Positions 1-61,587 of a DNA stretch of 64,000 nucleotides are shown here, one piece after another. The translations under genes were made by a program, and so were the position numbers. The notes under the pieces are model-generated. The model had not been told where the DNA came from and searched no databases. It saw only the letters and a program-made list of their open reading frames with translations. Source of the stretch: a virus. The first letter of the stretch is position 1. Every line of letters starts with the position of its first letter. The stretch is taken from the UHGV virus genome UHGV-0248979; one strand, given 5' to 3'.

Positions 1-165
1 ATAGACGCGGACGGGGAAGAAAACCAACTTAAAAATGTACCAATAACTACAAAAGCAGGGTGTAACCAACTAGCCTCCTCAATAGGTGTAGAAGCTTACG
101 AGTACATTCGTCGTGTAGTGATGGCAGAGCGTAATAGAGGGGCGGAAAATGAGTCAAGAAAATAG
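1..165 (+). CDS. 3' end of an upstream ORF truncated by the window edge
   Basis: Frame 1 is open from position 1 to a TAG stop at 163-165, ending 17 nt into the next gene; no start within the window. Confidence 0.3.
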   Translation: MDADGEENQLKNVPITTKAGCNQLASSIGVEAYEYIRRVVMAERNRGAENESRK

Positions 166-1471
166 TTATCCTAAACAACTGACTTATCAAATTGTTACAA
201 ATTTATCGTGTAACTTGGACTGTGAGTATTGTTACGAACGTAAGTATCCCCGTAATAACAAAGCGGCGGATATTGTTGATTTTCTACACGCTTGTTTTGA
301 ACGAGATAAAGATCTGACAAACATCGAGGTCGTTATCGATATCATCGGTGGTGAGCCGTTTATTCAGCCTAAACTATTAAAGGCGGCATTTGAAACCGCA
401 GAAGAGTTATGCGAAAAACATAATCGGCCGTTTATGTTTAGCATCTCTACTAACGGAACGTTGTTAGATAGACCTTTGAATAGAGAAATTATTGAACGTT
501 GGAAAGACAGGCTGTCTATCGGCGTGTCTATTGATGGATTGCCCGAATCGCACGATAAGTACCGGATTTTTACAACAACTCGTGAAGGATCTTACGAGGC
601 CGCTGTGCGGGGCTATAACTACTTAAAAGAAGTCGGTATTGCAGAACTTGGTGTAAAAGCGACCTTTACGTTGGAAACGTTACCGTTCTATGCTGCTGGA
701 ATGAAATCATTAATTGATATTACTGGCGGCGGAACTATTTCTGGCAACGTAACCTTCGAAGACATTATGCCACGGAGCATGGCTACTTCAATCGCATTGC
801 AGATGATGGACGTGGTAGATTATTGGGTTGAGAAGGGCTTACACACCAACCCACGTAACACTTTGTCGCACATCATTCCAGACGGGTTAGATTTTGATAC
901 TATCTGGGAACCAAACTGGCGTGATCAGTTATTGTATAACGATACTGTACGTTTGAATCCAGAACGTTTACGCCCGTTCTGCGGTACGTTAACACACATG
1001 ACCTGCTTAGGATTTGATCGTAAGATCTTCGGTTGTAACCGTTTCATGTCAACCGTAACATCACGTTCTGCCGTATTTGAATTAGTTGGGCGGGAATTCG
1101 TTAGCTTAGATGACGGGAAATTGCTGGAAGAGATTCAGACGCAATACACCAACTATCCTGAAACCTGTTTAGGTTGTCCAATGAAGCACGCTTGTGGTAG
1201 TTGTGCGGCTGCATCTTACGAGAATGGAGAAGGGACGCTAGAAGATCGCAAAGCTTATCACGCTGAACGCCGTCAATGCGGCTGGACAACTGCAAAGTTG
1301 ATGGTTGCGGAATATTGGAAACAGAAAATGGGCACGACGTCAGTGAAAGATTTTCATGACAATAGCATGTGTTATTGCCCTCGTTGCGTACGTGAACGTA
1401 CCCAGAAAGAAAAACAATTGAGAGAAACCAAAGATGAAGCCAATTCTGATCCACAATATTACGAAGCGTAA
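149..1471 (+). CDS. radical SAM enzyme with C-terminal SPASM/twitch-like cysteine cluster
   Basis: CxxxCxxC motif (CNLDCEYC) near the N-terminus; Cys-rich C-terminal segment (CLGCPMKHACGSCAA...CGW...CYCPRC); 440 aa. Confidence 0.8.
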   Translation: MSQENSYPKQLTYQIVTNLSCNLDCEYCYERKYPRNNKAADIVDFLHACFERDKDLTNIEVVIDIIGGEPFIQPKLLKAAFETAEELCEKHNRPFMFSISTNGTLLDRPLNREIIERWKDRLSIGVSIDGLPESHDKYRIFTTTREGSYEAAVRGYNYLKEVGIAELGVKATFTLETLPFYAAGMKSLIDITGGGTISGNVTFEDIMPRSMATSIALQMMDVVDYWVEKGLHTNPRNTLSHIIPDGLDFDTIWEPNWRDQLLYNDTVRLNPERLRPFCGTLTHMTCLGFDRKIFGCNRFMSTVTSRSAVFELVGREFVSLDDGKLLEEIQTQYTNYPETCLGCPMKHACGSCAAASYENGEGTLEDRKAYHAERRQCGWTTAKLMVAEYWKQKMGTTSVKDFHDNSMCYCPRCVRERTQKEKQLRETKDEANSDPQYYEA

Positions 1472-2725: not shown

Positions 2726-3256
2726 TTAAGCAGTAAAGCCGTCAAGTTCACCGTCGGTGGTGGCCAGGTCAATACGATTATCAACAACTTTCGGCGTAAT
2801 TACGAAAGTTGCCATTACACCCGGTTTATAACGGAGGTTCTTTTCAGTAACGGTACAAGTTACCGTACGCAGAGTGACGCTATCGTGTTCGTCTTTCTGG
2901 TCTTCGGTGGTGTACTCAACGTCACCAGGTGCGATAGAGTCGTCAGGTTTTACTTTATTGATGTAAAACTGTAATCGGTCGCGTAGTTCGTTTTCTCCAG
3001 TCCAGAGAGCCAAATCGTCCGTTACCTCAATGCGTCCGACAACGCCAGGTTCCAGACGATCGTAATGCAGTTCGATTGCGCCTTTAAAATTTTCAGACTC
3101 TGTACGTGCGGTCATGGTAACTTTGGTATTTTTATCGCCCTTTTCAAGAGCGACAGGTTGACCAAAAGTTACCTCTTTATCAGTGACCTGATGCGGTAGC
3201 TCTGTGTTAGCAGCATTATAAAGCGCAACTAACATCATCTGGTTAGTAGCTGCCAT
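2726..3256 (-). CDS. paralog family member P1 (putative tail-associated protein); C-terminus ELDGFTA
   Basis: 176 aa; N-terminal pattern shared with five other ORFs in the window; C-terminus shared with 3324..3890. Confidence 0.6.
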   Translation of the reverse strand: MAATNQMMLVALYNAANTELPHQVTDKEVTFGQPVALEKGDKNTKVTMTARTESENFKGAIELHYDRLEPGVVGRIEVTDDLALWTGENELRDRLQFYINKVKPDDSIAPGDVEYTTEDQKDEHDSVTLRTVTCTVTEKNLRYKPGVMATFVITPKVVDNRIDLATTDGELDGFTA

Positions 3257-3307
3257 TATCTTAAATCCTTAAAATGAAAGTTAAAGAAATATCGGGGGAG
3301 GTTACCA

Positions 3308-3316
3308 CCCCCCCCC
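3308..3316 (-). repeat. homopolymeric G9 tract (C9 on the plus strand), intergenic between P2 and P1
   Basis: Nine consecutive C read directly at 3308-3316. Confidence 0.9.
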
Positions 3317-3323
3317 GAATCAA

Positions 3324-3890
3324 TTACTCTTTAGGCGCTGGTGCGGTGAAGCCATCCAGTTCACCTTCCAAACCGCTCAGTGCTACTTTCTCAATAGCCG
3401 GAGGAGTAACTTTATACGTTGCAACAGTACCTGGCAGGAACTTCAGGTGTCCAGTCACAACAGTTACTACGTAAATGGTTTTGCCTTCTTCTTCACGGGA
3501 AATAGTTTGCAGGTCGTTTTCACCGAACTCGTCATCGGTGTACCCCTTCTCAACCATGGCTGCGTTAACTTTTGCCAGGATTTTCGTTGGTGAATCGAAA
3601 TCGGTAGTAGGTGCAGTTACTTCAACTTCACCAACGATGTCGCAGGAAAGACGAGTATAGTGGAATTCTTTCTCGCCTTTGAAGTTCTGGCTTTCTGCCT
3701 TGGCGGTCAGAGTAATTTTAGTGTTGCGGCCAGCTTCTCCGGTGAAGTCAGCGACAGCACTAAAGTCAACATCAGCTACGGTGAGAGCGGAGCTCAGAGA
3801 GCTGTTTTTAGTGTTAATAAGTTCGATAAGCTGCTGTTGAAAAGTTTTAGCCATTGTTTTTACCTCGTAAGTAGTATGGGTGGTTTGCAT
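3324..3890 (-). CDS. paralog family member P2 (putative tail-associated protein)
   Basis: 188 aa; tandem paralog of P1, same ELDGFTA C-terminal motif plus a PAPKE extension. Confidence 0.6.
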   Translation of the reverse strand: MQTTHTTYEVKTMAKTFQQQLIELINTKNSSLSSALTVADVDFSAVADFTGEAGRNTKITLTAKAESQNFKGEKEFHYTRLSCDIVGEVEVTAPTTDFDSPTKILAKVNAAMVEKGYTDDEFGENDLQTISREEEGKTIYVVTVVTGHLKFLPGTVATYKVTPPAIEKVALSGLEGELDGFTAPAPKE

Positions 3891-4592: not shown

Positions 4593-5108
4593 TTAAATCT
4601 CGACTAAGGCGCTCCAATCGATTGGTTTTTGCTTAACAACTTTCACAGTACCACGATTTGGTGACCAGAAAGTAATGTTAGGCTGGTTACGAACGTCAAT
4701 GTGCAACCAACTGATGTCACATTCAATAAAGTGAATGAACGGAAACTCGTCAGGGTTAGCAGCGATATAGTCGTGAACCTGTTTTACGGTGCTATCCAAC
4801 AACGTTGCATCAATGGCGTTACCGAATTTGTGTTGACTTCCTGAATCGGCGTAAAGCTGCAACGCACGTTGTTTATAACTACCACCCTTAGGCTTTTCTT
4901 GATTAATAAAGAAATCTAAGGTTCTTAGTCCGCGCTGTTGTGCGGCAGTTGAGTTAATCACCATTCTGCCGAAACGATTACGAATCTGTTGTAGGGAGAT
5001 CATTAACAACGGATTCATAAACCGAATTGCGGAATCGCCGTATTTGGCAATATAGGACTGTGGTACTAACTCTCTGAGTTTAAAGTTACTCGGATTTGGA
5101 TGAAACAT
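4593..5108 (-). CDS. peptidase M15-like cell-wall hydrolase (DUF882/Peptidase_M15_3-like)
   Basis: Motif SQHKFGNAIDA (SxHxxGxAxD) and a later His, typical of zinc D,D-carboxypeptidase-like M15 domains. Confidence 0.6.
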   Translation of the reverse strand: MFHPNPSNFKLRELVPQSYIAKYGDSAIRFMNPLLMISLQQIRNRFGRMVINSTAAQQRGLRTLDFFINQEKPKGGSYKQRALQLYADSGSQHKFGNAIDATLLDSTVKQVHDYIAANPDEFPFIHFIECDISWLHIDVRNQPNITFWSPNRGTVKVVKQKPIDWSALVEI

Positions 5109-5760
5109 CTTCCCTCCCAGACAGAAAAGCCCGTTTGATGTTCAGGTATTTGACATTAACGGGACAATCTGTGGTGATATCAATACGTTCGTGGTCAGGG
5201 ATTGCAGGTTCCTTAAACTCGCGAACGAATAAATAGTTTCGATTGTAATCTAACGTACGAAACGCGTTAGTGCTGTAGGATGGCTTTGCATTAGGATCTA
5301 CGTAGGCATCCCAGCCGAATTCAACAACGGCCTTATAAAATGTTTGGCAGATATAAGGCGAGATTTCCAACGACTGCATAATACGCAGGAAAGTTAAGTC
5401 AGAGAACTCTTTATCGATGAAACGCGAAACGTTACCACCCGGTGTCATGGGATAGCTACGCTCCGTGTTGCATTTTTGATAGAGTAAGTCGTGAATACAG
5501 GCCGCAGGTGCCCACGGTCCGTCAGGATGGAAAATTCCCTGGAGGTGATCAGGAATTGACGCTAAATCGGTAACGAACCCTTTCGGTGCTGTTAACCACA
5601 GTTGCGTGTCAGGCAATACACCCGTTAAATAAACCGCACGGTCTAAGTGTACGTGGTCGTGATAAATCTCGCGTAACGTAAACGGATAATGGTAATCCTC
5701 CGTTAATACAAACCACTTATTGTCTAAACGTTTATATTGAAGCTTCTCCATTACCCACAC
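5086..5760 (-). CDS. DUF1353-like phage protein
   Basis: Motif TDLASIP...HD..Y resembling the DUF1353 signature; 224 aa. Confidence 0.5.
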   Translation of the reverse strand: MWVMEKLQYKRLDNKWFVLTEDYHYPFTLREIYHDHVHLDRAVYLTGVLPDTQLWLTAPKGFVTDLASIPDHLQGIFHPDGPWAPAACIHDLLYQKCNTERSYPMTPGGNVSRFIDKEFSDLTFLRIMQSLEISPYICQTFYKAVVEFGWDAYVDPNAKPSYSTNAFRTLDYNRNYLFVREFKEPAIPDHERIDITTDCPVNVKYLNIKRAFLSGREDVSSKSE

Positions 5761-6491: not shown

Positions 6492-6520
6492 AAAGAGGGT
6501 GGGATTACCCCACCCTGTAG
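6492..6520 (-). terminator. rho-independent terminator
   Basis: Hairpin agggtggg-attacc-ccaccct with a T-run on the minus strand. Confidence 0.6.
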
Positions 6521-6997
6521 TTATTTCTTCTTAGCGCGCGATGGCTTAGCTGGCGGTGTCTCGACAGACGGTTTACGCGCAACACGCACTGTAAAACCAC
6601 CGACCCAGGTTAGACACTCGGGGCGGAAGAAAATACCGTGCTCGATTGCACTGCCGTCTAGCGGCAACGCACCAACCTGCTCTACCCACACATCGTCTTC
6701 GGTAAGGGTTAAGCCATACTGCTCGTTAATTACAGGCAGCAAGTCCGCAGTCGTGGTTGCTGTCTCAACTAACAGTTTCGGCAATACGTTGTGGAAATAC
6801 AAACCTGCATCAATGCGGTTATACTGGAACGTTTGCTTATTAACATAACCGAGATTTTTAACCGGCACAACCGTAATTTCGGTGTTGTACGTACCGGTAC
6901 TTACGACGGGCTCACCCAATGTGACTTTGGCGGTGTCGAGCTCGGCGTCTGGGTTAGCCTTTTTAATAAGGTCGAAGATAGTTTCTTGACTGGTCAT
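6521..6997 (-). CDS. paralog family member P3 (putative tail-associated protein)
   Basis: 158 aa; shares the N-terminal pattern of the family. Confidence 0.55.
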   Translation of the reverse strand: MTSQETIFDLIKKANPDAELDTAKVTLGEPVVSTGTYNTEITVVPVKNLGYVNKQTFQYNRIDAGLYFHNVLPKLLVETATTTADLLPVINEQYGLTLTEDDVWVEQVGALPLDGSAIEHGIFFRPECLTWVGGFTVRVARKPSVETPPAKPSRAKKK

Positions 6998-7010: not shown

Positions 7011-7859
7011 TTAATCTAAGAATCCCGGTAAGACCGAATTAGTCTTGGCTAATTCAATCTTCGACTTCGGACGATCGGTTCCGTTAAAGTGAATTAACAG
7101 TTTACCGGTCAGGTTAGAACACATACCGCTTAGGGCGAGTACCAGCACACGCGTGTACTTCGCATTTGCGCCTTCGAAACCTGCGGTAGGGCCATCGTAG
7201 ATAACCTTAGCACCGAACAAGTTATTAGCAGCGTTCTTAGGTACGCTTACCCATTTCTCATCAACAACGTTAGTCAGTTTAGTAGCTAACTCTACTAAGT
7301 CTACGGTGCCGTTGATGGTAATTGGATCAAGGTAATCTTTTTCTGCGGTGAAGTCAATTGGGTAAGAATAAACCGCAGCGTTACCTTTCTTAGTGGACGG
7401 ATACTCTACCAGGTTTTCTAATTGAGTAACAGGTAGCAATTTAGCCAGATCAATAGGATCGCGTAGCGTAAGCGTCACTTCGCCACACCACTCGTAAGAT
7501 TTCTCGTTAGCGGTAAGTTGGTGGGTTTTACCTTCAACTTTCGCATCAACGATATCCGATGGCAGAATATTTAAATCGTATTTTGCGTTGATTGCGTTAA
7601 GCAAATCTGAGGCGGTTACAACACCGTCGTTACCGAATACCAACTCACCTGTTAGGTATTCGGGCAAATTACGACGATGGTAAGTCACCGTTAAAGTAGT
7701 AGACTCATCGCCTTTGAGTTTAGAAGTCAGAACCACCTGGGTATCAACCCCAGTACCAGTAGGTTCGCCGATATCAACATCACTGAAGGTCAATGGCGGA
7801 ACAATATTGTTTTCAGTGTTGATGAGTTTTAGCAGTTTCTGTTTTGACGTAAGAGACAT
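7011..7859 (-). CDS. paralog family member P4 (putative tail-associated protein)
   Basis: 282 aa; N-terminus LLKLINTENN...FSDVDIGEP matches the family pattern. Confidence 0.6.
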   Translation of the reverse strand: MSLTSKQKLLKLINTENNIVPPLTFSDVDIGEPTGTGVDTQVVLTSKLKGDESTTLTVTYHRRNLPEYLTGELVFGNDGVVTASDLLNAINAKYDLNILPSDIVDAKVEGKTHQLTANEKSYEWCGEVTLTLRDPIDLAKLLPVTQLENLVEYPSTKKGNAAVYSYPIDFTAEKDYLDPITINGTVDLVELATKLTNVVDEKWVSVPKNAANNLFGAKVIYDGPTAGFEGANAKYTRVLVLALSGMCSNLTGKLLIHFNGTDRPKSKIELAKTNSVLPGFLD

Positions 7860-8459: not shown

Positions 8460-8535
8460 TTTAATACTCCTTTAGGTAAATACAATAATAGAGGGGTGGT
8501 AATCCACCCCTTGGTTGAATTTAGAATGTCGTTAA

Positions 8536-10540: not shown

Positions 10541-11086
10541 TTAGAGGTGTTTTCCGATAACTTCCGAAACTAATTCGTAAAGGTCATCGTCACTGCACAC
10601 GTCTACGCTAATTCCGATATCGATACTACGACTGCGGAACCCTACTTTGAGCGTTTTACCGAATTCGGTTTGTAGGGCTTTATAGAGTCTATTCTTATCT
10701 TCTTTAAAGAGAGGAACAGGTAGTCTAACAGTGAACTTGTAATGTTCTTTCGAAACAAGTTCGTTAGAATAATTAAAACGTTTAGCCACACGAGTTCCGA
10801 TAATCTGTGTTATCAGCTTAAACATTTCTTCGTCGCTATACGGTGTTGCACCATAACCGATATCAATAGAATTTCTACGGAATCCTGCGCAGAATAATGC
10901 ACCGAATTGCTCACGGAATTCTTTGTGTAGAATATCTTTTTCTACGTCCCACAGCCCGTAACCCAAGTCAATCGTGAATTTGTATTTTTCTTTGTCGACT
11001 AATTCGTTAGTGTAATCAAGTCTAGTGAAGTTCATGGTATATTCTCCTAAAATGGTTTCGTTAAGTGAGAGTAACTGAACTCTCAC
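10541..11086 (-). CDS. hypothetical protein built from two tandem ~85-aa repeats
   Basis: Internal duplication (NELVDKEKYKFT...SIDIGYG vs NELVSKEHYKFT...SIDIGIS); likely true start is the ATG near 11035 (MNFTRLDY) with an AGGAG RBS. Confidence 0.6.
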   Translation of the reverse strand: MRVQLLSLNETILGEYTMNFTRLDYTNELVDKEKYKFTIDLGYGLWDVEKDILHKEFREQFGALFCAGFRRNSIDIGYGATPYSDEEMFKLITQIIGTRVAKRFNYSNELVSKEHYKFTVRLPVPLFKEDKNRLYKALQTEFGKTLKVGFRSRSIDIGISVDVCSDDDLYELVSEVIGKHL

Positions 11087-11106
11087 CTAGGTAATATATA
11101 TCTGAA
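11080..11106 (-). promoter_or_regulatory. conserved phage promoter element, copy 1
   Basis: Minus-strand TTCAGATATATATTACCTAGGTGAGAG followed by an 8-bp-stem hairpin, about 45-70 nt upstream of a start codon. Confidence 0.55.
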
Positions 11107-12572: not shown

Positions 12573-13088
12573 TTACCCCCGGTGCAAGAAAATACGGTTA
12601 GTGTTTTCGAATTTCGGTTCTGTCCACTCCAGTTCCCAGTAAGCCTGGTTAATATCGCGAGACGTGAGTTTCAAATTCGAAACGCCAGGGATTTCGATCT
12701 GCTGCAGTAAATTAATAATCGTCACCAGCTCTTTACGAGGACGGTTCCAGATAACTTCAAGATATTCTTTCAGACGCTCTGGATAAGCGACAGGTCGAAT
12801 ATAAACTAGTCCAGCGGGATACTCAATTGCTGAGGGTGTTCTAGGCACTAACCAAACCCAGTCTTTTAATAGCGGTCCTGAGTGGTAGTTAGAGAGTTGA
12901 GTAAGCGCGTTTGCGACCGAACAACAACGGAAGTAAGTGATGTCCCAATCGTGTTCATGACAATTTCGCGCAACGATAACTTTTAAACGGTCAATAGGTT
13001 TACCGTCGATAGTCGTAACACCAGGTTGATTCGCCAGAATCTGACGTTCACGTTTAGTATAAAGATTCATGTTAATATTTACTGACAT
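12573..13088 (-). CDS. hypothetical protein
   Basis: 171-aa ORF; RBS CCTAAAGGAG. Confidence 0.55.
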   Translation of the reverse strand: MSVNINMNLYTKRERQILANQPGVTTIDGKPIDRLKVIVARNCHEHDWDITYFRCCSVANALTQLSNYHSGPLLKDWVWLVPRTPSAIEYPAGLVYIRPVAYPERLKEYLEVIWNRPRKELVTIINLLQQIEIPGVSNLKLTSRDINQAYWELEWTEPKFENTNRIFLHRG

Positions 13089-13130: not shown

Positions 13131-13973
13131 TTATTTGAGATTTCGAATTTCTCTCATCTCGTTACAAAACTTATCAAACAACTGGGCGTATTTGTCAATG
13201 TGATTTTCGAACTCCCCAAAAAGGTGGCGTGAAAGGCGTTCGCTGACTTCTTTCTCGTATTTCTCGAGAACGTGTTTAAAAGATTCACTGTCTCTCTTAA
13301 TTTTCTTCGCATGGGTTTCCAAAGTTTTAAGAAGTCGTGGTTCGTTTTTGATCAGGAGATGCAAGTCACCTTTAAGATATCTGCTTTGATAAATCATTAT
13401 TTCGGCGAGCTTGTATTCACCTTTCACAACACTGATAAGCTCATCAGCACCGGCTTCTGTAATGTTTTCAACGGTAAATAGCAGAATATTTTCGCCCTCT
13501 ATATCTTTCAATAGTTGATTTATAGGAGATCGATAAGCAGTATATTCATAGCTCACTTTAAGCATGTTGTCTTCAATCACATACGTGAATTTATCGCTGA
13601 AAAAATGGTATAGTATTGGTCCAATTTTATCTGCTTGTTTGGGGGTAAGTGGGAACTCCTTTGTGTAGTAAGCGTTGCCTTTCGTAGTTGGCTTGTCCTT
13701 TAGCCCACAAGTCATTTGATCGTGTAATTCTGGATCTTTAGACACCTCAACAGATCGTACTAAAATATCCGTAATCGCACTAATGAGTTTGTTAGGAAAA
13801 TCGACATCACCTTCTACCCAGAAAATGTTAAACGATTCCGATTTAACTTTATAGTAAAAGGTGTACGTTTTTTGTAACTCAGCGATTTCCTTAATTTGTT
13901 CTTCAGTGGGGATAGGGGAGATCTTAAACCTGCTGATGACTTTTTCTTCTTCGGTGAGTTCGAACCGTAACAT
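13131..13973 (-). CDS. hypothetical protein
   Basis: 280-aa ORF. Confidence 0.55.
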   Translation of the reverse strand: MLRFELTEEEKVISRFKISPIPTEEQIKEIAELQKTYTFYYKVKSESFNIFWVEGDVDFPNKLISAITDILVRSVEVSKDPELHDQMTCGLKDKPTTKGNAYYTKEFPLTPKQADKIGPILYHFFSDKFTYVIEDNMLKVSYEYTAYRSPINQLLKDIEGENILLFTVENITEAGADELISVVKGEYKLAEIMIYQSRYLKGDLHLLIKNEPRLLKTLETHAKKIKRDSESFKHVLEKYEKEVSERLSRHLFGEFENHIDKYAQLFDKFCNEMREIRNLK

Positions 13974-15323: not shown

Positions 15324-15350
15324 CTCTCTCCTAGGTAATATATATCTGAG
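15324..15350 (-). promoter_or_regulatory. conserved phage promoter element, copy 2
   Basis: Minus-strand CTCAGATATATATTACCTAGGAGAGAG plus a downstream hairpin. Confidence 0.55.
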
Positions 15351-17523: not shown

Positions 17524-18036
17524 CTACTCTCCAAAAGTTAAGATTTTATTGTCAAACGTCAACACGACAGAATCATCACCGATGCCACACGGTGTTTCAT
17601 CTGGGCCGAAAACCACCACGGAGAACTGTCCTTTATAAGCGATGGAATTCGGAGCGATGCTAAGCGTTACCGCGTCTTTACCTACCGTGAACGACTGGTC
17701 GGTTAAATCGTCGGTTTGTAAGTTAGCACCACAAACGGCATTGACGGATTCGATAAGATCGTGTGCATTAAACCCTTCACCTCTTACTTTTACCAGAATA
17801 GGTTGTTGGTTTAACCACCGCTCTGCGGTTAAACGGTTGTAGTAGATTTGCAACGTTCTGTTTCCAGGACGTTTAATCTTTACAATGGCAGTGGAGTCAC
17901 GATCCATTTCATCACTGGTTTTTACGTCACTGACTTCAACCTCGTTCTCTTGCAAGTCAAGTTGGAGGTCATGGTTAACCAGTGAAATAACCATGTTAAG
18001 TGAAGTTAGTGATAAATCTGGTGTGAATTTTTCCAC
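17524..18036 (-). CDS. paralog family member P5, translationally coupled to the tailspike gene
   Basis: 170 aa; GTG start preceded by an AGGAGG RBS; stop 3 nt before the tailspike ATG. Confidence 0.6.
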   Translation of the reverse strand: MEKFTPDLSLTSLNMVISLVNHDLQLDLQENEVEVSDVKTSDEMDRDSTAIVKIKRPGNRTLQIYYNRLTAERWLNQQPILVKVRGEGFNAHDLIESVNAVCGANLQTDDLTDQSFTVGKDAVTLSIAPNSIAYKGQFSVVVFGPDETPCGIGDDSVVLTFDNKILTFGE

Positions 18037-18090
18037 GTATGTTTACCTCCTACGGTTGGGGGTCATAAAATATTGACTAAAAAACATTCA

Positions 18091-18100
18091 CCCCCCCCCC
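18091..18100 (-). repeat. homopolymeric G10 tract (C10 on the plus strand), 5' of P5
   Basis: Ten consecutive C read directly at 18091-18100. Confidence 0.9.
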
Positions 18101-18103
18101 ACG

Positions 18104-18131
18104 ATTATTTTCAACCGCTTTCAGTTGAAAA
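18104..18131 (-). terminator. hairpin at the 3' end of the adhesin-like gene
   Basis: 12-bp perfect stem attattttcaac/gttgaaaataat with loop cgctttca. Confidence 0.5.
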
Positions 18132-18134
18132 TAA

Positions 18135-18642
18135 TTAGCTAATTCTCAAATCACGCAGTGCGCCTGTCGATTTCATCACGTTTTGGAACGCAGCGCTGAT
18201 GTTATTAGTCCAGTAATAATGCTGTCCGTTAATAACCTGCTGATAGGCCAGCGCGCAGGTGTTACCACCTAAATTTACGGTAATGTTAGAGGCTCTGCCT
18301 CCTTGTAAGTAAACCGCTAAAGTAGGCTTTGCGTTGGCAACTATCGTCGTTAACTGTAACTCAATACCTACTAAAGTTCCCACCCCGCAGTTACCCGCGT
18401 TTTGAATGGTTCCCTGATTTTTCTGGTTTAACGGCCAGCTTGGTCCTACTGCGCCCCATTTCTTACCTAAAGAATCGCTATATGCAGCGGTTGCAATTTT
18501 ACAGCCCATAGATCGTCCCACCATTTGACTCATCATAAAAGGTCTACCCAATCCTAATTTACTACCAGCAGCGCTCATCCATTGTTCGCCCGTTTCGTTC
18601 TTGGCCGAAGAACCGACCCACGAACCGGTTACCCCCCCCCAT
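18135..18642 (-). CDS. adhesin-like tail fibre-associated protein, paralog B; 5' end put out of frame by a G9 tract
   Basis: ORF track gives 18135..18578. The same frame is open upstream (…GSWVGSSAKNETGEQW) and matches paralog A's N-terminus; an ATG with AGGAG RBS at 18642-18640 is +1 out of frame across the G9 run. Confidence 0.6.
18632..18640 (-). repeat. homopolymeric G9 tract overlapping the start codon of adhesin-like paralog B
   Basis: Nine consecutive C at 18632-18640; the minus strand reads AT-GGGGGGGGG-TAACC. Confidence 0.9.
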
Positions 18643-18654
18643 CGCGATCTCCTG

Positions 18655-18885
18655 TTAAGATTTTCTACATGTTATTGAATCGAAAGCACCACGCCCAACC
18701 CAACGCCAATTATAATGATGATCAGCTTTATAAAGTGTGTATCTGCCCTGCTTTTTTACGTCGAAAATATTGATCGTAGTCTCTTCATTACCCAGCTTAG
18801 CTGTGCCGTAACATACAGGTTCGGGTAGTTGTTGACATCCACTTACTGTAAGCAATGCGAAACCCAGTAAAACTTTTCTTAACAT
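18655..18885 (-). CDS. small lipoprotein between the two adhesin-like genes (candidate receptor-masking protein)
   Basis: 76 aa; signal peptide with lipobox (LLTVSG-C); mature part about 59 aa with further Cys. Confidence 0.6.
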   Translation of the reverse strand: MLRKVLLGFALLTVSGCQQLPEPVCYGTAKLGNEETTINIFDVKKQGRYTLYKADHHYNWRWVGRGAFDSITCRKS

Positions 18886-18895
18886 CTTTCTGTCC

Positions 18896-19441
18896 TTAGA
18901 CTACACTTATTGAAATTGTTGCACCGTTCTGATTAAATAACCAGTTGGTTGCCGTCTTAGCCTCATAGCGCCGGACGCCGTTACTGTAGGAGTACGGTAG
19001 AAAAGTAATCTTCGTTCCGTTAAACGAAAGCGTAATATTCTGATTTGGTCCATTGGTTAGGGCCATGTAGATAATACCAGTATTTTGTACTTGGCTAAGA
19101 TGTGTGACGCTACAACCCAAGATCGAACCTGACACCGAACCGGCCGCATTTTGTGTTTGCACACGATTCGATACTGTAGAACCAGCACCCGTTGTTGTAG
19201 AGTTGTTCGAATACCCCCCATACGTATTTGTAATAGGAACCCACTGCGTGTTCGTAGCCTGCACCAAAACAACATAGGTTGATCGGCCTACAACGAGTTT
19301 AAGATCCTCTACGCTACGCCCGACCATCTGCGACATGTTAAATGGCGTGCTCAGTTTAAGCTTATTACCTGCCACACTCATCCACTCCTGACCGGTTACT
19401 GCCTTTGCTGAGCTTCCAACCCAGCCGGATGCTACCCCCAT
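18896..19441 (-). CDS. adhesin-like tail fibre-associated protein, paralog A
   Basis: 181 aa, Gly/Ser/Thr/Asn-rich; ATG with GGAGGA RBS just downstream of the fibre gene terminator. Confidence 0.65.
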   Translation of the reverse strand: MGVASGWVGSSAKAVTGQEWMSVAGNKLKLSTPFNMSQMVGRSVEDLKLVVGRSTYVVLVQATNTQWVPITNTYGGYSNNSTTTGAGSTVSNRVQTQNAAGSVSGSILGCSVTHLSQVQNTGIIYMALTNGPNQNITLSFNGTKITFLPYSYSNGVRRYEAKTATNWLFNQNGATISISVV

Positions 19442-19451
19442 AAATCCTCCA

Positions 19452-19481
19452 AACTAAAATAGGGGGATTACTCCCCCTATC
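19452..19481 (-). terminator. hairpin terminator after the tail fibre gene
   Basis: Hairpin tagggggagtaatccccctat followed by a T-rich run on the minus strand. Confidence 0.6.
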
Positions 19482-24127: not shown

Positions 24128-24724
24128 TCATGTAGCCGGGTTTTCTTCAGCGGAGTCTCCATCTGGAACCTCAAATGTAAGAACAGCATCGTCACCAATA
24201 CAGAAGATTGCATCTTCTTCGTTTGCTAATGCCCGTTCAGTTTTATCAAATAACGTCACCATAAACGCATTCACCCACGCTGGAGAATCGTCAGCAACGT
24301 TGACAGCAATAGGATCGTTACCTAAAGTGATATCTGAAGCATGTAAATCCTCGGGTTGTAAGTTCGTTCCGCAGAATTCATTTACAACACCTAAAATGTC
24401 ACGAAGGTTGTCTTCGGTACCATCTAACGAAATCAAAATAGGTTCGGACGCTAACACTTTGTCCGCATCCAAGCGGTCGTAATAAACAACTACAGAAGCA
24501 CCATCAGGTTTCCTGATTTTTGTAATCTCTGTCAGTGTGTTACGACGCGACGTAGTCGGGGACAGGTTTGCCATAGTGTTGCTAATACGAATTTCGCTTA
24601 GAGACAACCGTGAACCGTTATCGTGGTTGATTAAAGCGACCACCAATTCGGCTGAGGACAGACTTAAATCAGGTACGTATGTGGCCACTATAGCCTCCCA
24701 GATCAAAAAAAAAATAAAAAACAT
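24128..24724 (-). CDS. paralog family member P6, upstream of the tail fibre gene
   Basis: N-terminal region (VPDLSLSSAELVVALINHDNG) homologous to P5; true start probably a GTG near 24681 with GGGAGG RBS (the ORF-track N-terminus translates a poly-T run). Confidence 0.55.
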   Translation of the reverse strand: MFFIFFLIWEAIVATYVPDLSLSSAELVVALINHDNGSRLSLSEIRISNTMANLSPTTSRRNTLTEITKIRKPDGASVVVYYDRLDADKVLASEPILISLDGTEDNLRDILGVVNEFCGTNLQPEDLHASDITLGNDPIAVNVADDSPAWVNAFMVTLFDKTERALANEEDAIFCIGDDAVLTFEVPDGDSAEENPAT

Positions 24725-34397: not shown

Positions 34398-34424
34398 CTC
34401 TCACCTAAGTAATATATATCTGAG
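34398..34424 (-). promoter_or_regulatory. conserved phage promoter element, copy 3
   Basis: Minus-strand CTCAGATATATATTACTTAGGTGAGAG plus a downstream hairpin. Confidence 0.55.
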
Positions 34425-59157: not shown

Positions 59158-59299
59158 GTCTGGGGAGCTTCGGCTCCCCCTATAACCCCTTATGCGTCTC
59201 GAAAAGCAAAAAAAAACAGAAGGCTATTAATTATGAACGGAAAACAACTACCGAACTAAGTAGGGGGTGTTGCTACCACCCCCTTTATTAGTTAGTAAC

Positions 59300-59461
59300 T
59301 TATCTCCTTAGAGGTGGTTGCTGAACATTGTGGTTGTTAACCGTTTTCGGTGCCGCAACGAGGCCGAGACGAACATATTCGTCCATGCGTTGGTTAAACT
59401 GAATTTGTTTTTCACGATTTCGCATCGCGGTATTGAACATCTGTATTTGATATTCGTTCAT
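59300..59461 (-). CDS. small protein sORF-A (53 aa), member of a three-gene tandem family
   Basis: Not in the ORF track (below cutoff); ATG with upstream purine-rich RBS; shares QR..EY..LG...KP pattern with sORF-B and sORF-C. Confidence 0.55.
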   Translation of the reverse strand: MNEYQIQMFNTAMRNREKQIQFNQRMDEYVRLGLVAAPKTVNNHNVQQPPLRR

Positions 59462-59550
59462 TTTTCATTACCTTTCGTAATGTTGTAAAAACGTCAACAA
59501 CTTTATGTGTTGACACCGTACAGCAGAGACTGGCGGAACAGCCTCTGCTG

Positions 59551-59578
59551 CTTTAACTTCTCTTTCGAAAAGTTAAAG
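59551..59578. promoter_or_regulatory. conserved hairpin element, copy 1 (ctttaacttctctttcgaaaagttaaag)
   Basis: 9-bp stem / 10-nt loop, flanked by GC-rich hairpins at 59521-59550 and 59584-59609. Confidence 0.5.
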
Positions 59579-59685
59579 CTATGAAAAGGGGTGGTGGTGC
59601 ACCCCTTTTTATTATACCTACGACCACCATCTCGGCAGGTTACTGTACGAGGAGGAGAGGCGTGTCAGCGCCTCTCCTTTATTTG

Positions 59686-59859
59686 TTAGTAGTGTTCACT
59701 CCTCTTTTCGGTGAATATCTGCGTGAAACGGTTGGTAGACGGTTTTAACCGTTTATCCATGCCGAGCTGACTATACTTGTAGATACGTTGCTGTAAATTG
59801 GTCTTTGCTGCACTCTGTTCTGCAAGCATTTTGTCAGTAAAGTAGTAACCATTGTTCAT
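59686..59859 (-). CDS. small protein sORF-B (57 aa), tandem family member
   Basis: ATG with AGAGGG RBS; C-terminus QIFTEKRSEHY matches sORF-C QIFTERRSNY through synonymous codon changes. Confidence 0.6.
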   Translation of the reverse strand: MNNGYYFTDKMLAEQSAAKTNLQQRIYKYSQLGMDKRLKPSTNRFTQIFTEKRSEHY

Positions 59860-59949
59860 GGTAGGCCCTCTTTGTAGGGTGATTAAAGAAATCCACTACG
59901 GAAACGTAATGGTGTTGTAAAGGGGTGTGACAGCACCCCTTTATTTTAT

Positions 59950-60120
59950 TTAGTAGTTACTTCTCCTTTCGGTGAAGATTTGTACTCGAGGATTATTAGA
60001 AGGTTTAAGCCTTTTATTTAATCCTAGCTGTTGAACTTCTCTTAATCGTTCATTAAACCTCGCTTGTTCTGCATAGCTGTTTGAAATAGAAGTAAAGATA
60101 CGTGAATTGTTGTTAGTCAT
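59950..60120 (-). CDS. small protein sORF-C (56 aa), tandem family member
   Basis: ATG with GAGG RBS; conserved LG(M/L)(D/N)KRLKPS...QIFTE core. Confidence 0.6.
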   Translation of the reverse strand: MTNNNSRIFTSISNSYAEQARFNERLREVQQLGLNKRLKPSNNPRVQIFTERRSNY

Positions 60121-61514: not shown

Positions 61515-61559
61515 ATATAACTCCTAATTAGGTATTCGATAAATGAGTATTACGTAAAC

Positions 61560-61587
61560 TCTCACCTAGGTAATATATATCTGAAAT
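61560..61587 (-). promoter_or_regulatory. conserved phage promoter element, copy 4
   Basis: Minus-strand TTCAGATATATATTACCTAGGTGAGAG, about 50 nt upstream of the 47-aa sORF. Confidence 0.55.

What the first reader, a model, noticed from the sequence alone, without database searches (positions are those of the whole stretch)
3308..3316. G9 tract between tandem paralogs P2 and P1
Nine G on the coding strand lie 8 nt after the stop of P2 and about 50 nt before the start of P1. It is the third long G run in the window, again next to a member of a tail-associated paralog family.
Basis: seen in the sequence. Interest (0 to 1): 0.4.

Follow-up and report, generated by a model that had tools for sequence, protein, structure and literature searches.

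The report
Poly-G arm of a terminator hairpin
The nine-G run is real and changes length between near-identical phage genomes, but it is one arm of an ordinary terminator-type RNA hairpin between two baseplate-fibre genes, and the hairpin is predicted to fold equally well at every common tract length, so an on/off switch is unlikely.

Summary
G9 lies on the minus (coding) strand at 3308-3316, 7 nt after the P2 stop and 51 nt before the P1 ATG. Runs of G or C of 9 or more are about 40 times more frequent than expected (3 seen, 0.07 expected).

The tract is the 5' arm of a hairpin, UCGGGGGGGG / GUGGUAA / CCUCCCCCGA, followed by UAUUUCUUU. This is an intrinsic-terminator shape, like the other G-rich terminators in the window. 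The hairpin and its tail are kept in relatives about 15% diverged in P1, while the loop and flanks change. Cronobacter phage CR5 has an ordinary terminator at the analogous site and no G run.

Tract length does vary: 7 to 11, mode 10, in 21 assemblies. One assembly matches the window over 6.26 kb except for this tract. However, all three homopolymers of 9 nt or more in a 20.5-kb control comparison vary too, including a T10. Predicted hairpin energy is flat for eight or more G. No ORF or recognisable promoter spans the tract.

Verdict: a slippage-prone but buffered terminator arm, probably not a switch for P1. A sister tract at 18632-18640 is a true frame switch in a Gp38-like adhesin gene. The host phage is an uncultivated ~225-kb chimallivirus.

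The parts
3308..3316 (-). G9 homopolymer (C9 on the + strand). Its length varies between related genomes: 7-11, mode 10.
3309..3318 (-). 5' arm of the hairpin, UCGGGGGGGG. It uses 8 of the 9 G.
   Evidence: RNAfold; terminator scan; coordinates
3302..3308 (-). Loop GUGGUAA. The surplus G of the tract sits here. Among relatives the predicted loop is 4-9 nt, and the sequence between the two arms is TGGTAA, TAA or TGA.
3292..3301 (-). 3' arm CCUCCCCCGA. The single U pairs with a G as a G-U wobble, so the stem is complete only in sense-strand RNA. The CCTCCCC core is invariant in all 21 related sequences.
3283..3291 (-). U-rich tail UAUUUCUUU (7 of 9 U) directly after the stem. GATATTTCT[C/T]TAAC is conserved in all relatives that have the hairpin.
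3324..3854 (-). P2, upstream DUF7941 paralog (176 aa from ATG 3854; the mechanical ORF runs to 3890). It is highly variable between relatives.
2726..3256 (-). P1, downstream DUF7941 paralog (176 aa). Its Shine-Dalgarno AAGGA is at 3270-3266. None of the motifs enriched upstream of other genes, other than Shine-Dalgarno-type ones, lies in the 35-nt stretch between hairpin and ATG.

Best explanation
The G tract is the 5' arm of an intercistronic RNA hairpin that acts as an intrinsic (factor-independent) terminator or attenuator at the end of the P2 transcript. On the sense RNA, eight G pair with CCUCCCCC (7 G-C pairs and 1 G-U pair), closed by the U-A and C-G pairs of the flanking UC and GA. A U-rich tail follows. 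P1 is probably made from transcripts that read through the hairpin, so the hairpin would set the P2:P1 ratio of two DUF7941 baseplate-fibre proteins. Because the arm is a pure run of 9 or more G, the replicating polymerase slips on it and its length drifts between 7 and 11. Only 8 G are needed and surplus G simply enlarge the loop, so the hairpin is buffered against this drift. The length polymorphism is therefore most likely a near-neutral by-product rather than a switch. The run probably arose when an A-to-G change in an arm like GGGGGAGG fused two G runs; that change is tolerated because G-U still pairs. What is shown: the anatomy, the conservation, the length polymorphism and the flat predicted energy. 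What is inferred: actual termination, read-through expression of P1, the slippage mechanism and the origin.
For: RNAfold gives a 10-bp stem with a 7-nt loop, and the consensus scan ranks it among the best terminator-like sites in the first 20 kb. Other intergenic terminators in the window share the design of a G-rich 5' arm, a TAAT/ATTA-type loop, a C-rich 3' arm and a T run, for example GGGGTGGattaCCACCCC and GGGTGGGGtaatCCCACCC. In relatives with P1 at 85-88% amino-acid identity and a much more diverged P2, both arms and the tail are kept while the loop and both flanks change. All tract-length variants fold into the same stem. Energy is flat for n>=8 and falls for n<8. The closest cultured relative, Cronobacter phage CR5, has an ordinary hairpin plus T-run terminator at the analogous position upstream of its P1 homolog, and no G/C run above 6 in 40 kb. 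The second intergenic tract (18091-18100) is also the 5' arm of a conserved hairpin. One relative there has GGAGGGGG paired with CCCCCU.CC, which is the proposed un-fused state. Chimalliviruses are reported to use many hairpin terminators: 52 of 132 mapped 3' ends in phage 201phi2-1 were classed as intrinsic (PMC11512511). All three homopolymers of 9 nt or more in the 20.5-kb comparison vary, including a T10, so variation alone does not indicate a function.
Against: No transcript 3' ends are available for this phage, so termination is untested. The U tract is interrupted (UAUUUCUUU). The folding z-score of the region is modest (-1.9), partly because shuffles keep the G and C runs. The tract is usually 1-3 G longer than pairing requires, and the run is uninterrupted in every relative, which a purely neutral view explains only if slippage outpaces point mutation. 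Long G/C runs are strongly over-represented in this phage lineage and lie in its host-recognition module. One of them is a true coding switch, so selection for mutability here cannot be excluded. A strain-specific C10 tract elsewhere has no hairpin partner.
Confidence: 0.62

Rival explanations
1. Contingency rheostat. The tract is kept because its slippage tunes terminator read-through through loop size or stem register. This would vary the P1 dose, and so the composition of the DUF7941 fibre layer, among progeny.
For: Length differs between near-identical genomes; L005 matches the window over 6.26 kb except for this tract. The same lengths recur on different backgrounds. The predicted loop changes from 4 to 9 nt across variants. 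G/C runs of 9 or more are about 40-fold over-represented. A sister tract is a real frame switch in an adhesin gene. Hypermutable tracts in phage genes are documented (Sorensen 2021 as cited in PMC12823448; PMC12633550).
Against: Predicted hairpin energy changes by 0.5 kcal/mol or less over the common range 9-11. The tract is not in an ORF or a promoter spacer. The T10 control tract is just as polymorphic. The length distribution (mode 10) resembles that of the other two tracts despite their different contexts, which suggests a mutational equilibrium.
Confidence: 0.2
2. The hairpin is an RNA element but not a terminator. It could be a 3'-end stabiliser of processed P2 mRNA, an RNase processing site, or a structure that uncouples P1 translation from P2.
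For: The conserved stem forms fully only in sense RNA because of the G-U pair. The similar poly-G hairpin at 18037-18104 lacks a U tail and sits just before a Shine-Dalgarno sequence, so such hairpins need not be terminators.
Against: The conserved U-rich tail directly after the stem fits the terminator pattern of the other intergenic hairpins. CR5 has a canonical terminator at the analogous site.
Confidence: 0.1
3. DNA-level role. The conserved G-rich hairpin region would act as a recombination junction for swapping P2 or P1 alleles, or the G run would form a non-B DNA structure.
For: Identity to the window changes sharply at the hairpin. In L021, P2 is 80-93% identical and P1 76-82% (up to 94% in one window). 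In L022-L024, most of P2 is 40-70% identical while P1 stays at 74-84% (about 91% in one window).
Against: Only about 35 conserved bases are available. A single G run cannot form an intramolecular quadruplex. The invariant T in the 3' arm gives a G-T mismatch in DNA but a legitimate G-U pair in RNA, which points to an RNA function.
Confidence: 0.05
4. Sequencing or assembly artefact. The tract, or its length variation, is not real.
For: Short-read assemblies miscall long homopolymers, and T10 and G tracts all vary by one or two bases.
Against: The tract is present in every one of 21 assemblies from different sources and assemblers. At the sister coding tract the G8 allele exactly restores a 168-aa adhesin ORF, which random miscalls would not favour.
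Confidence: 0.03

Closest known systems
Intrinsic (Rho-independent) terminators of chimalliviruses, mapped by ONT-cappable-seq in 201phi2-1 (PMC11512511) and phiKZ (PMC10914365)
   Same: GC-rich stem-loop followed by a U-rich tract, placed just after a stop codon between same-strand structural genes. The window holds many similar elements, and CR5 has one at the analogous site.
   Different: The 5' arm is a pure homopolymer longer than the stem needs, so its length is polymorphic. Termination has not been measured here.
Hypermutable polyG tracts in receptor-binding protein genes of Campylobacter phages (Sorensen et al. 2021, Cell Rep 35:109214; seen only as a citation in PMC12823448)
   Same: G runs of about 9-10 in the host-recognition module of a lytic phage, varying in length within the phage lineage.
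   Different: As I recall that work, its tracts lie inside ORFs and switch the reading frame. This one is intergenic and changes no frame. The window's tract at 18632-18640 is the true analogue.
Contingency loci in coliphages T2/T4 (Gomez, Barrick and Waters 2025 preprint, PMC12633550)
   Same: Homopolymers in phage genomes mutate by +/-1 at raised rates, producing population heterogeneity.
   Different: The functionally tested examples in that preprint (agt, rIIA) are coding-sequence repeats causing frameshifts. The present tract has no frame to shift.
Homopolymeric G-repeat in the tlpB leader of Helicobacter pylori, targeted by the C/U-rich loop of sRNA RepG (Pernitzsch et al. 2014; from my own knowledge, not checked here)
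   Same: A variable G repeat in non-coding mRNA that base-pairs with a C/U-rich RNA segment. This offers a precedent for graded, length-dependent regulation.
   Different: There the pairing is in trans and repeat length changes regulation. Here the pairing is in cis within a terminator stem and is predicted to be insensitive to length.
Promoter-spacer poly-G/C tracts of Neisseria and Bordetella surface-protein genes (from my own knowledge, not checked here)
   Same: An intergenic homopolymer upstream of a surface-structure gene.
   Different: Those tracts sit between promoter elements, so one base changes promoter strength. No promoter elements flank this tract.

Membership tests
Intrinsic (Rho-independent) terminator | GC-rich stem of about 5-14 bp with a short loop (3-8 nt) | tested here: met
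   10-bp stem (7 G-C, 1 C-G, 1 G-U, 1 U-A) with a 7-nt loop. Variants in relatives have 4-9 nt loops.
Intrinsic (Rho-independent) terminator | U-rich tract immediately 3' of the stem | tested here: met
   UAUUUCUUU, 7 of 9 U, at 3291-3283. It is conserved as GATATTTCT[C/T]TAAC in all 21 sequences. It is interrupted by A and C, so weaker than the best examples.
Intrinsic (Rho-independent) terminator | Lies downstream of a stop codon on the transcribed strand | tested here: met
   The stem starts 5 nt after the P2 stop, on the same strand as P2 and P1. The G-U pair makes the stem complete only in sense RNA.
Intrinsic (Rho-independent) terminator | Structure conserved while sequence around it diverges | tested here: met
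   Both arms and the tail are kept, while the loop (TGGTAA/TAA/TGA) and both flanks change. There are no compensatory double changes, so this is conservation rather than covariation.
Intrinsic (Rho-independent) terminator | Transcripts actually end there | not testable with these tools
   No RNA data are available for this uncultivated phage.
Simple-sequence contingency locus (phase variation) | Homopolymer long enough to slip (about 7 or more) | tested here: met
   G9 in the window, 7-11 in relatives.
Simple-sequence contingency locus (phase variation) | Length differs among closely related genomes | tested here: met
   9, 10 and 11 among assemblies with an identical P1. It is the only difference in 6.26 kb between the window and L005. 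T10 varies likewise, so this is not specific evidence of function.
Simple-sequence contingency locus (phase variation) | Placed so that +/-1 repeat changes expression (inside an ORF or between promoter elements) | tested here: not met
   The tract lies after the P2 stop. The only ORF crossing it (antisense, 3274..3474) has a start codon that is lost in the divergent relatives L022-L024. The nearest sigma-70-like match lies downstream and overlaps the P1 ATG. Hairpin energy is flat for n>=8.
Simple-sequence contingency locus (phase variation) | Reversible high-frequency switching with a phenotype in a clonal population | not testable with these tools
   This needs read-level or experimental data.
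G-quadruplex element | Four G runs separated by short loops on one strand | tested here: not met
   There is one run plus a GG dinucleotide.
Known RNA family (Rfam) | Match at gathering score | tested here: not met
   No Rfam match and no tRNA anywhere in the window.

The most novel reading that the evidence does not exclude
The tract is one member of a conserved set of at least three poly-G tracts in the host-recognition module of a gut chimallivirus. Together they would act as a bet-hedging system. One switches a second Gp38-type adhesin on and off by frameshift. The two intergenic ones sit in RNA hairpins next to DUF7941 fibre genes and would stochastically tune how much of each fibre paralog is made, so that a single burst yields virions with different surface coats.
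Probability: 0.15. Interest if true: 0.6.

Novelty: new member of a known kind. Interest (0 to 1): 0.3.

Why it matters
On its own the tract is a terminator hairpin with an unusual slippery arm, a useful caution that a variable homopolymer next to a surface-protein gene is not necessarily a switch. It also shows a route by which long G runs can arise: a G-rich stem tolerates an A-to-G change through G-U pairing, two runs fuse, and slippage takes over. The wider context is more interesting. An uncultivated ~225-kb chimallivirus, found in many metagenome assemblies, carries several conserved poly-G tracts in its host-recognition module, and one of them is a clear frame switch in a second adhesin gene. 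If tract length also tuned the P2:P1 ratio, it would be a non-coding contingency mechanism acting on the newly described DUF7941 fibre layer.

Tried and rejected
- **Near-identical matches in GenBank phages:** none found. A distant DNA search gave only short hits to CR5 and Erwinia jumbo phages, so no annotated record of this locus exists.
- **Exact look-up of the 188-aa P2 ORF:** failed because the real start is probably internal. The P1 look-up worked.
- **Antisense ORF 3274..3474 (+) crossing the tract:** rejected. It has no Shine-Dalgarno sequence, lies inside P2 on the opposite strand, and its ATG is lost in the divergent relatives L022-L024.
- **Sigma-70 promoter using the tract as spacer:** rejected. 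The only nearby match (3284-3255) lies downstream of the tract and its -10 overlaps the P1 ATG. Promoter-like hits are not enriched over shuffles (34 seen, 40 expected).
- **Phage promoter motif:** GTGAGA is enriched upstream of genes and four exact copies of TTACNTAGGNGAGAG exist, but none lies between the hairpin and P1.
- **G-quadruplex:** rejected, because there is only one G run.
- **Rfam and tRNA scans:** nothing found.
- **Sequence search of P1 against solved structures:** nothing significant. Only the 282-aa paralog hits phiKZ gp127.
- **Covariation test on the stem:** not run, because the arms are invariant and there are no double changes to count.
- **Specificity of variation to G tracts:** not upheld, because the T10 control also varies.

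Full report
**Observation**

The + strand carries C9 at 3308-3316, which is G9 on the minus strand. That strand codes for both neighbouring genes.
- The upstream gene P2 ends with TAA at 3326-3324. Seven bases (TTGATTC) separate the stop from the tract.
- The downstream gene P1 starts at ATG 3256-3254, 51 bases after the tract.
- P2 and P1 are 35% identical (E=9e-28), and both match Pfam DUF7941 and phrog_4862.
- The mechanical 188-aa ORF for P2 probably overshoots. Two related assemblies have an A5/A6 indel between the first and the 13th codon, and gene callers chose a 176-aa product starting at ATG 3854.

The run is not a chance event.
- C runs in the window have lengths 1-6 and then 9, 9 and 10, with nothing in between. 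G runs on the + strand stop at 5.
- From the short-run statistics, 0.07 G/C runs of 9 or more are expected and 3 are seen (P about 6e-5).
- Dinucleotide shuffles give a mean of 0.12 G9 matches against 4 overlapping matches observed.

**What kind of genome this is**

There is no close match among GenBank phages. Weak DNA matches and 35-42% protein matches point to Cronobacter phage CR5 (genus Derbicusvirus), Erwinia phages of the phiEaH2 group and Salmonella phage SPN3US.

The P1 protein occurs unchanged on contigs of about 225 kb in several metagenome assemblies. A third paralog is indexed in 192 blocks of the collection, so the phage is common but uncultivated.

DUF7941 has recently been described in a preprint on phage Goslar (10.64898/2026.04.21.720040).
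- It is reported as restricted to chimalliviruses.
- It is very abundant in virions: Goslar gp22 at about 580 copies and gp23 at about 2140 copies.
- It forms head-to-tail filaments and is attached to the peripheral baseplate.

The 282-aa paralog in the window (7011..7859) matches phiKZ gp127 in the solved phiKZ baseplate (PMC13250141).

The window holds at least six DUF7941 paralogs. It also holds a 1479-aa long tail fibre, two Gp38-type adhesin genes, a SASA-esterase protein and lysis genes.

**Anatomy of the tract**

On the sense RNA the tract is the 5' arm of a hairpin.
- 5' arm: UCGGGGGGGG (3318-3309)
- Loop: GUGGUAA (3308-3302)
- 3' arm: CCUCCCCCGA (3301-3292)
- Tail: UAUUUCUUU (3291-3283)

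Eight of the nine G pair with CCUCCCCC, one of them as a G-U wobble, and the ninth G lies in the loop. The consensus scan lists this among the strongest terminator-like sites in the first 20 kb.

Other intergenic hairpins on the same strand share the design of a G-rich 5' arm, a TAAT/ATTA-type loop, a C-rich 3' arm and a T run. Examples are GGGGTGGattaCCACCCC at 8492-8511, GGGTGGGGtaatCCCACCC at 6496-6516 and GGGGGAGtaatCCCCC at 19463-19477. Because of the G-U pair, the stem is complete only in sense-strand RNA. It would be a mismatch in DNA or in antisense RNA.

**Related sequences**

Ten assemblies with an identical P1 show tract lengths of 9 (one, plus the window), 10 (eight) and 11 (one). 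The flanks are otherwise almost unchanged. These genomes differ from the window by 0.02-1.7% over 6.26 kb. L005 differs from the window only at this tract.

Ten more distant relatives have P1 at 85-88% amino-acid identity. P2 is much more diverged in most of them, with most 100-nt windows at 40-70% nucleotide identity in L022-L024. All ten carry the hairpin, with G7 to G11, a loop of TAA or TGA, and the same 3' arm and tail. The short C run of the 3' arm also slips, appearing as C4, C5 or C6. The overall length distribution over the 21 sequences is 7:1, 8:1, 9:4, 10:13, 11:2.

Two relatives with a different upstream gene end lack the hairpin entirely (L025, L034). In CR5 the analogous site upstream of the P1 homolog has an ordinary hairpin, CCGCTATC..GATAGCGG, followed by TTCTTTAATTTCTT. 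That 40-kb CR5 region has no G/C run longer than 6. A terminator at this position therefore looks ancestral, and the poly-G arm is a feature of this lineage.

**Does length matter?**

Folding the region with n = 0 to 15 G gave these energies:

| n (number of G) | Predicted energy (kcal/mol) |
|---|---|
| 3-4 | about -12 |
| 5-6 | about -17 |
| 7 | -20.5 |
| 8 | -24.6 |
| 9-15 | -22.2 to -23.5 |

Extra G only enlarge the loop or shift the pairing register. All natural variants fold into the same stem, with loops of 4-9 nt. Over the common range 9-11 the change is at most 0.5 kcal/mol.

No ORF depends on the tract. The antisense ORF 3274..3474 has a start codon that is lost in the divergent relatives L022-L024. 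No promoter elements flank the tract. Motifs enriched upstream of genes are Shine-Dalgarno-like sequences and GTGAGA. P1 has the first (AAGGA at 3270-3266) but not the second. This suggests, weakly, that P1 is read through from P2.

**Is the variation special?**

In a 20.5-kb alignment of 11 genomes, only 3 of 89 homopolymers of 5-7 nt vary, each with one or two minor-allele genomes. All three homopolymers of 9 nt or more vary at high frequency.

| Tract | Lengths seen |
|---|---|
| T10 at 24705-24714 | 9, 10 |
| G9 at 18632-18640 | 8, 9, 10 |
| G10 at 18091-18100 | 9, 10, 11 |

Instability therefore tracks run length rather than context. By itself the variation is not evidence of a selected switch. 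I cannot separate real slippage from assembler miscalls at the level of single assemblies. However, at the coding tract the G8 allele exactly restores a full adhesin ORF, which argues that at least part of the variation is real.

**The sister tracts**

- **Tract at 18632-18640.** It begins with the G of an ATG. G8 or G11 gives a 168/169-aa Gp38-type adhesin whose N-terminus matches the neighbouring paralog. G9 (the window) and G10 give stops after 26 and 4 codons. Among 11 assemblies, one is in the ON state and ten are OFF. A diverged relative has G8, the ON state. This is a classic contingency switch and deserves its own report.
- **Tract at 18091-18100.** Like the present one, it is the 5' arm of a conserved hairpin. 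This one is a two-tier stem just before the Shine-Dalgarno sequence of another DUF7941 gene, and it has no U tail. One relative has GGAGGGGG paired with CCCCCU.CC in place of the pure run. That pattern shows how such runs can form: a G-rich arm with one A, paired to a U, becomes a pure G run by an A-to-G change that G-U pairing tolerates, and slippage then takes over. The invariant U in the 3' arm of the present hairpin fits the same history. This is an inference.

**Mechanism and rivals**

- **Best explanation, confidence about 0.6.** The hairpin is an intrinsic terminator or attenuator ending the P2 transcript and setting the P2:P1 ratio. Its poly-G arm slips, but the surplus G buffer the structure.
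- **Rheostat, about 0.2.** Loop size or pairing register would tune read-through. This is not excluded, and the enrichment of G runs in the host-recognition module favours it.
- **Hairpin with a different RNA role, about 0.1.** It could be a stabiliser or a processing site.
- **DNA-level role, about 0.05.**
- **Artefact, about 0.03.**

Chimalliviruses are known to use many hairpin terminators (PMC11512511), so the main reading fits known biology.

**Comparison with known systems**

The element meets every testable criterion for an intrinsic terminator. It fails the key positional criterion for a contingency locus, although it shares the hypermutable substrate with the polyG tracts of Campylobacter phages and the homopolymer loci of T2/T4. 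The nearest precedent for a non-coding G repeat acting through RNA pairing is the H. pylori tlpB/RepG case. I recall that from memory and did not check it here.

**Verdict**

The element is a new member of a known kind. Its own interest is modest (0.3). The context, a set of conserved poly-G tracts in a widespread uncultivated chimallivirus, is more interesting.

Noticed in passing
window 18135-18642 (minus strand), tract at 18632-18640: The G9 run starts with the G of an ATG and frameshifts a second Gp38-type adhesin gene. G8 or G11 gives a 168/169-aa protein whose N-terminus matches the paralog at 18896..19441. G9 (the window) and G10 give early stops. Related assemblies: G8 in 1, G9 in 5, G10 in 5. 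A diverged relative (L040) has G8, the ON state. This looks like a true phase-variable adhesin.
   Followed up: yes
window 18037-18104 (minus strand), tract at 18091-18100: The G10 run is the 5' arm of a conserved two-tier hairpin just upstream of the Shine-Dalgarno sequence of DUF7941 paralog 17524..18036, and it has no U tail. Its length is 9-11 in relatives. L041 has GGAGGGGG paired with CCCCCU.CC instead of a pure run.
   Followed up: partly
L011/L016/L017 about 14921 (equivalent to window about 13100, between 13131..13973 and 12573..13088): Some strains carry a C10 or C8 run on the coding strand, about 20 nt upstream of the start of a 171-aa gene, where the window has no run. No complementary G run lies nearby, so not every G/C tract in this lineage is a hairpin arm.
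   Followed up: no
window 11080-11094, 15324-15338, 34398-34412, 61559-61573 (minus strand): There are four exact copies of TTACNTAGGNGAGAG. Three intergenic copies extend to a ~26-nt motif, TCAGATATATATTACCTAGGTGAGAG. It is AT-rich upstream and is probably a phage-specific promoter. A shorter GTGAGA motif is enriched upstream of genes.
   Followed up: partly
window 2726-3256, 3324-3854, 6521-6997, 7011-7859, 17524-18036, 24128-24724: There are at least six DUF7941 paralogs. P1 and P2 share a C-terminal GELDGFTA motif (it ends P1; P2 continues PAPKE). The pair 7011..7859 (282 aa, full domain) and 6521..6997 (158 aa, N-terminal part only) resembles Goslar gp22/gp23. P2 and P1 are far more variable between strains than the flanking genes at 4593-5760.
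   Followed up: partly
window 18655-18885 (minus strand): A 76-aa ORF matching the PHROG family annotated as Cor superinfection-exclusion protein lies between the two Gp38-type adhesin genes. This is an odd place for such a gene in a jumbo phage.
   Followed up: no
window 24705-24714: An A10 run (T10 on the coding strand) varies between 9 and 10 among 11 related assemblies, as often as the G tracts do. It served as a control, but it lies just upstream of the start of DUF7941 paralog 24128..24724 and may itself matter.
   Followed up: partly
window 59158-60106: A 949-nt stretch has no long ORF but several strong GC-rich hairpins with T runs on the + strand. Rfam and tRNA scans found nothing there.
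   Followed up: no
window 149-1471 and upstream: Two adjacent radical-SAM genes lie next to the tail-fibre module. The same arrangement is present in Cronobacter phage CR5 (CR5_153/154).
   Followed up: no
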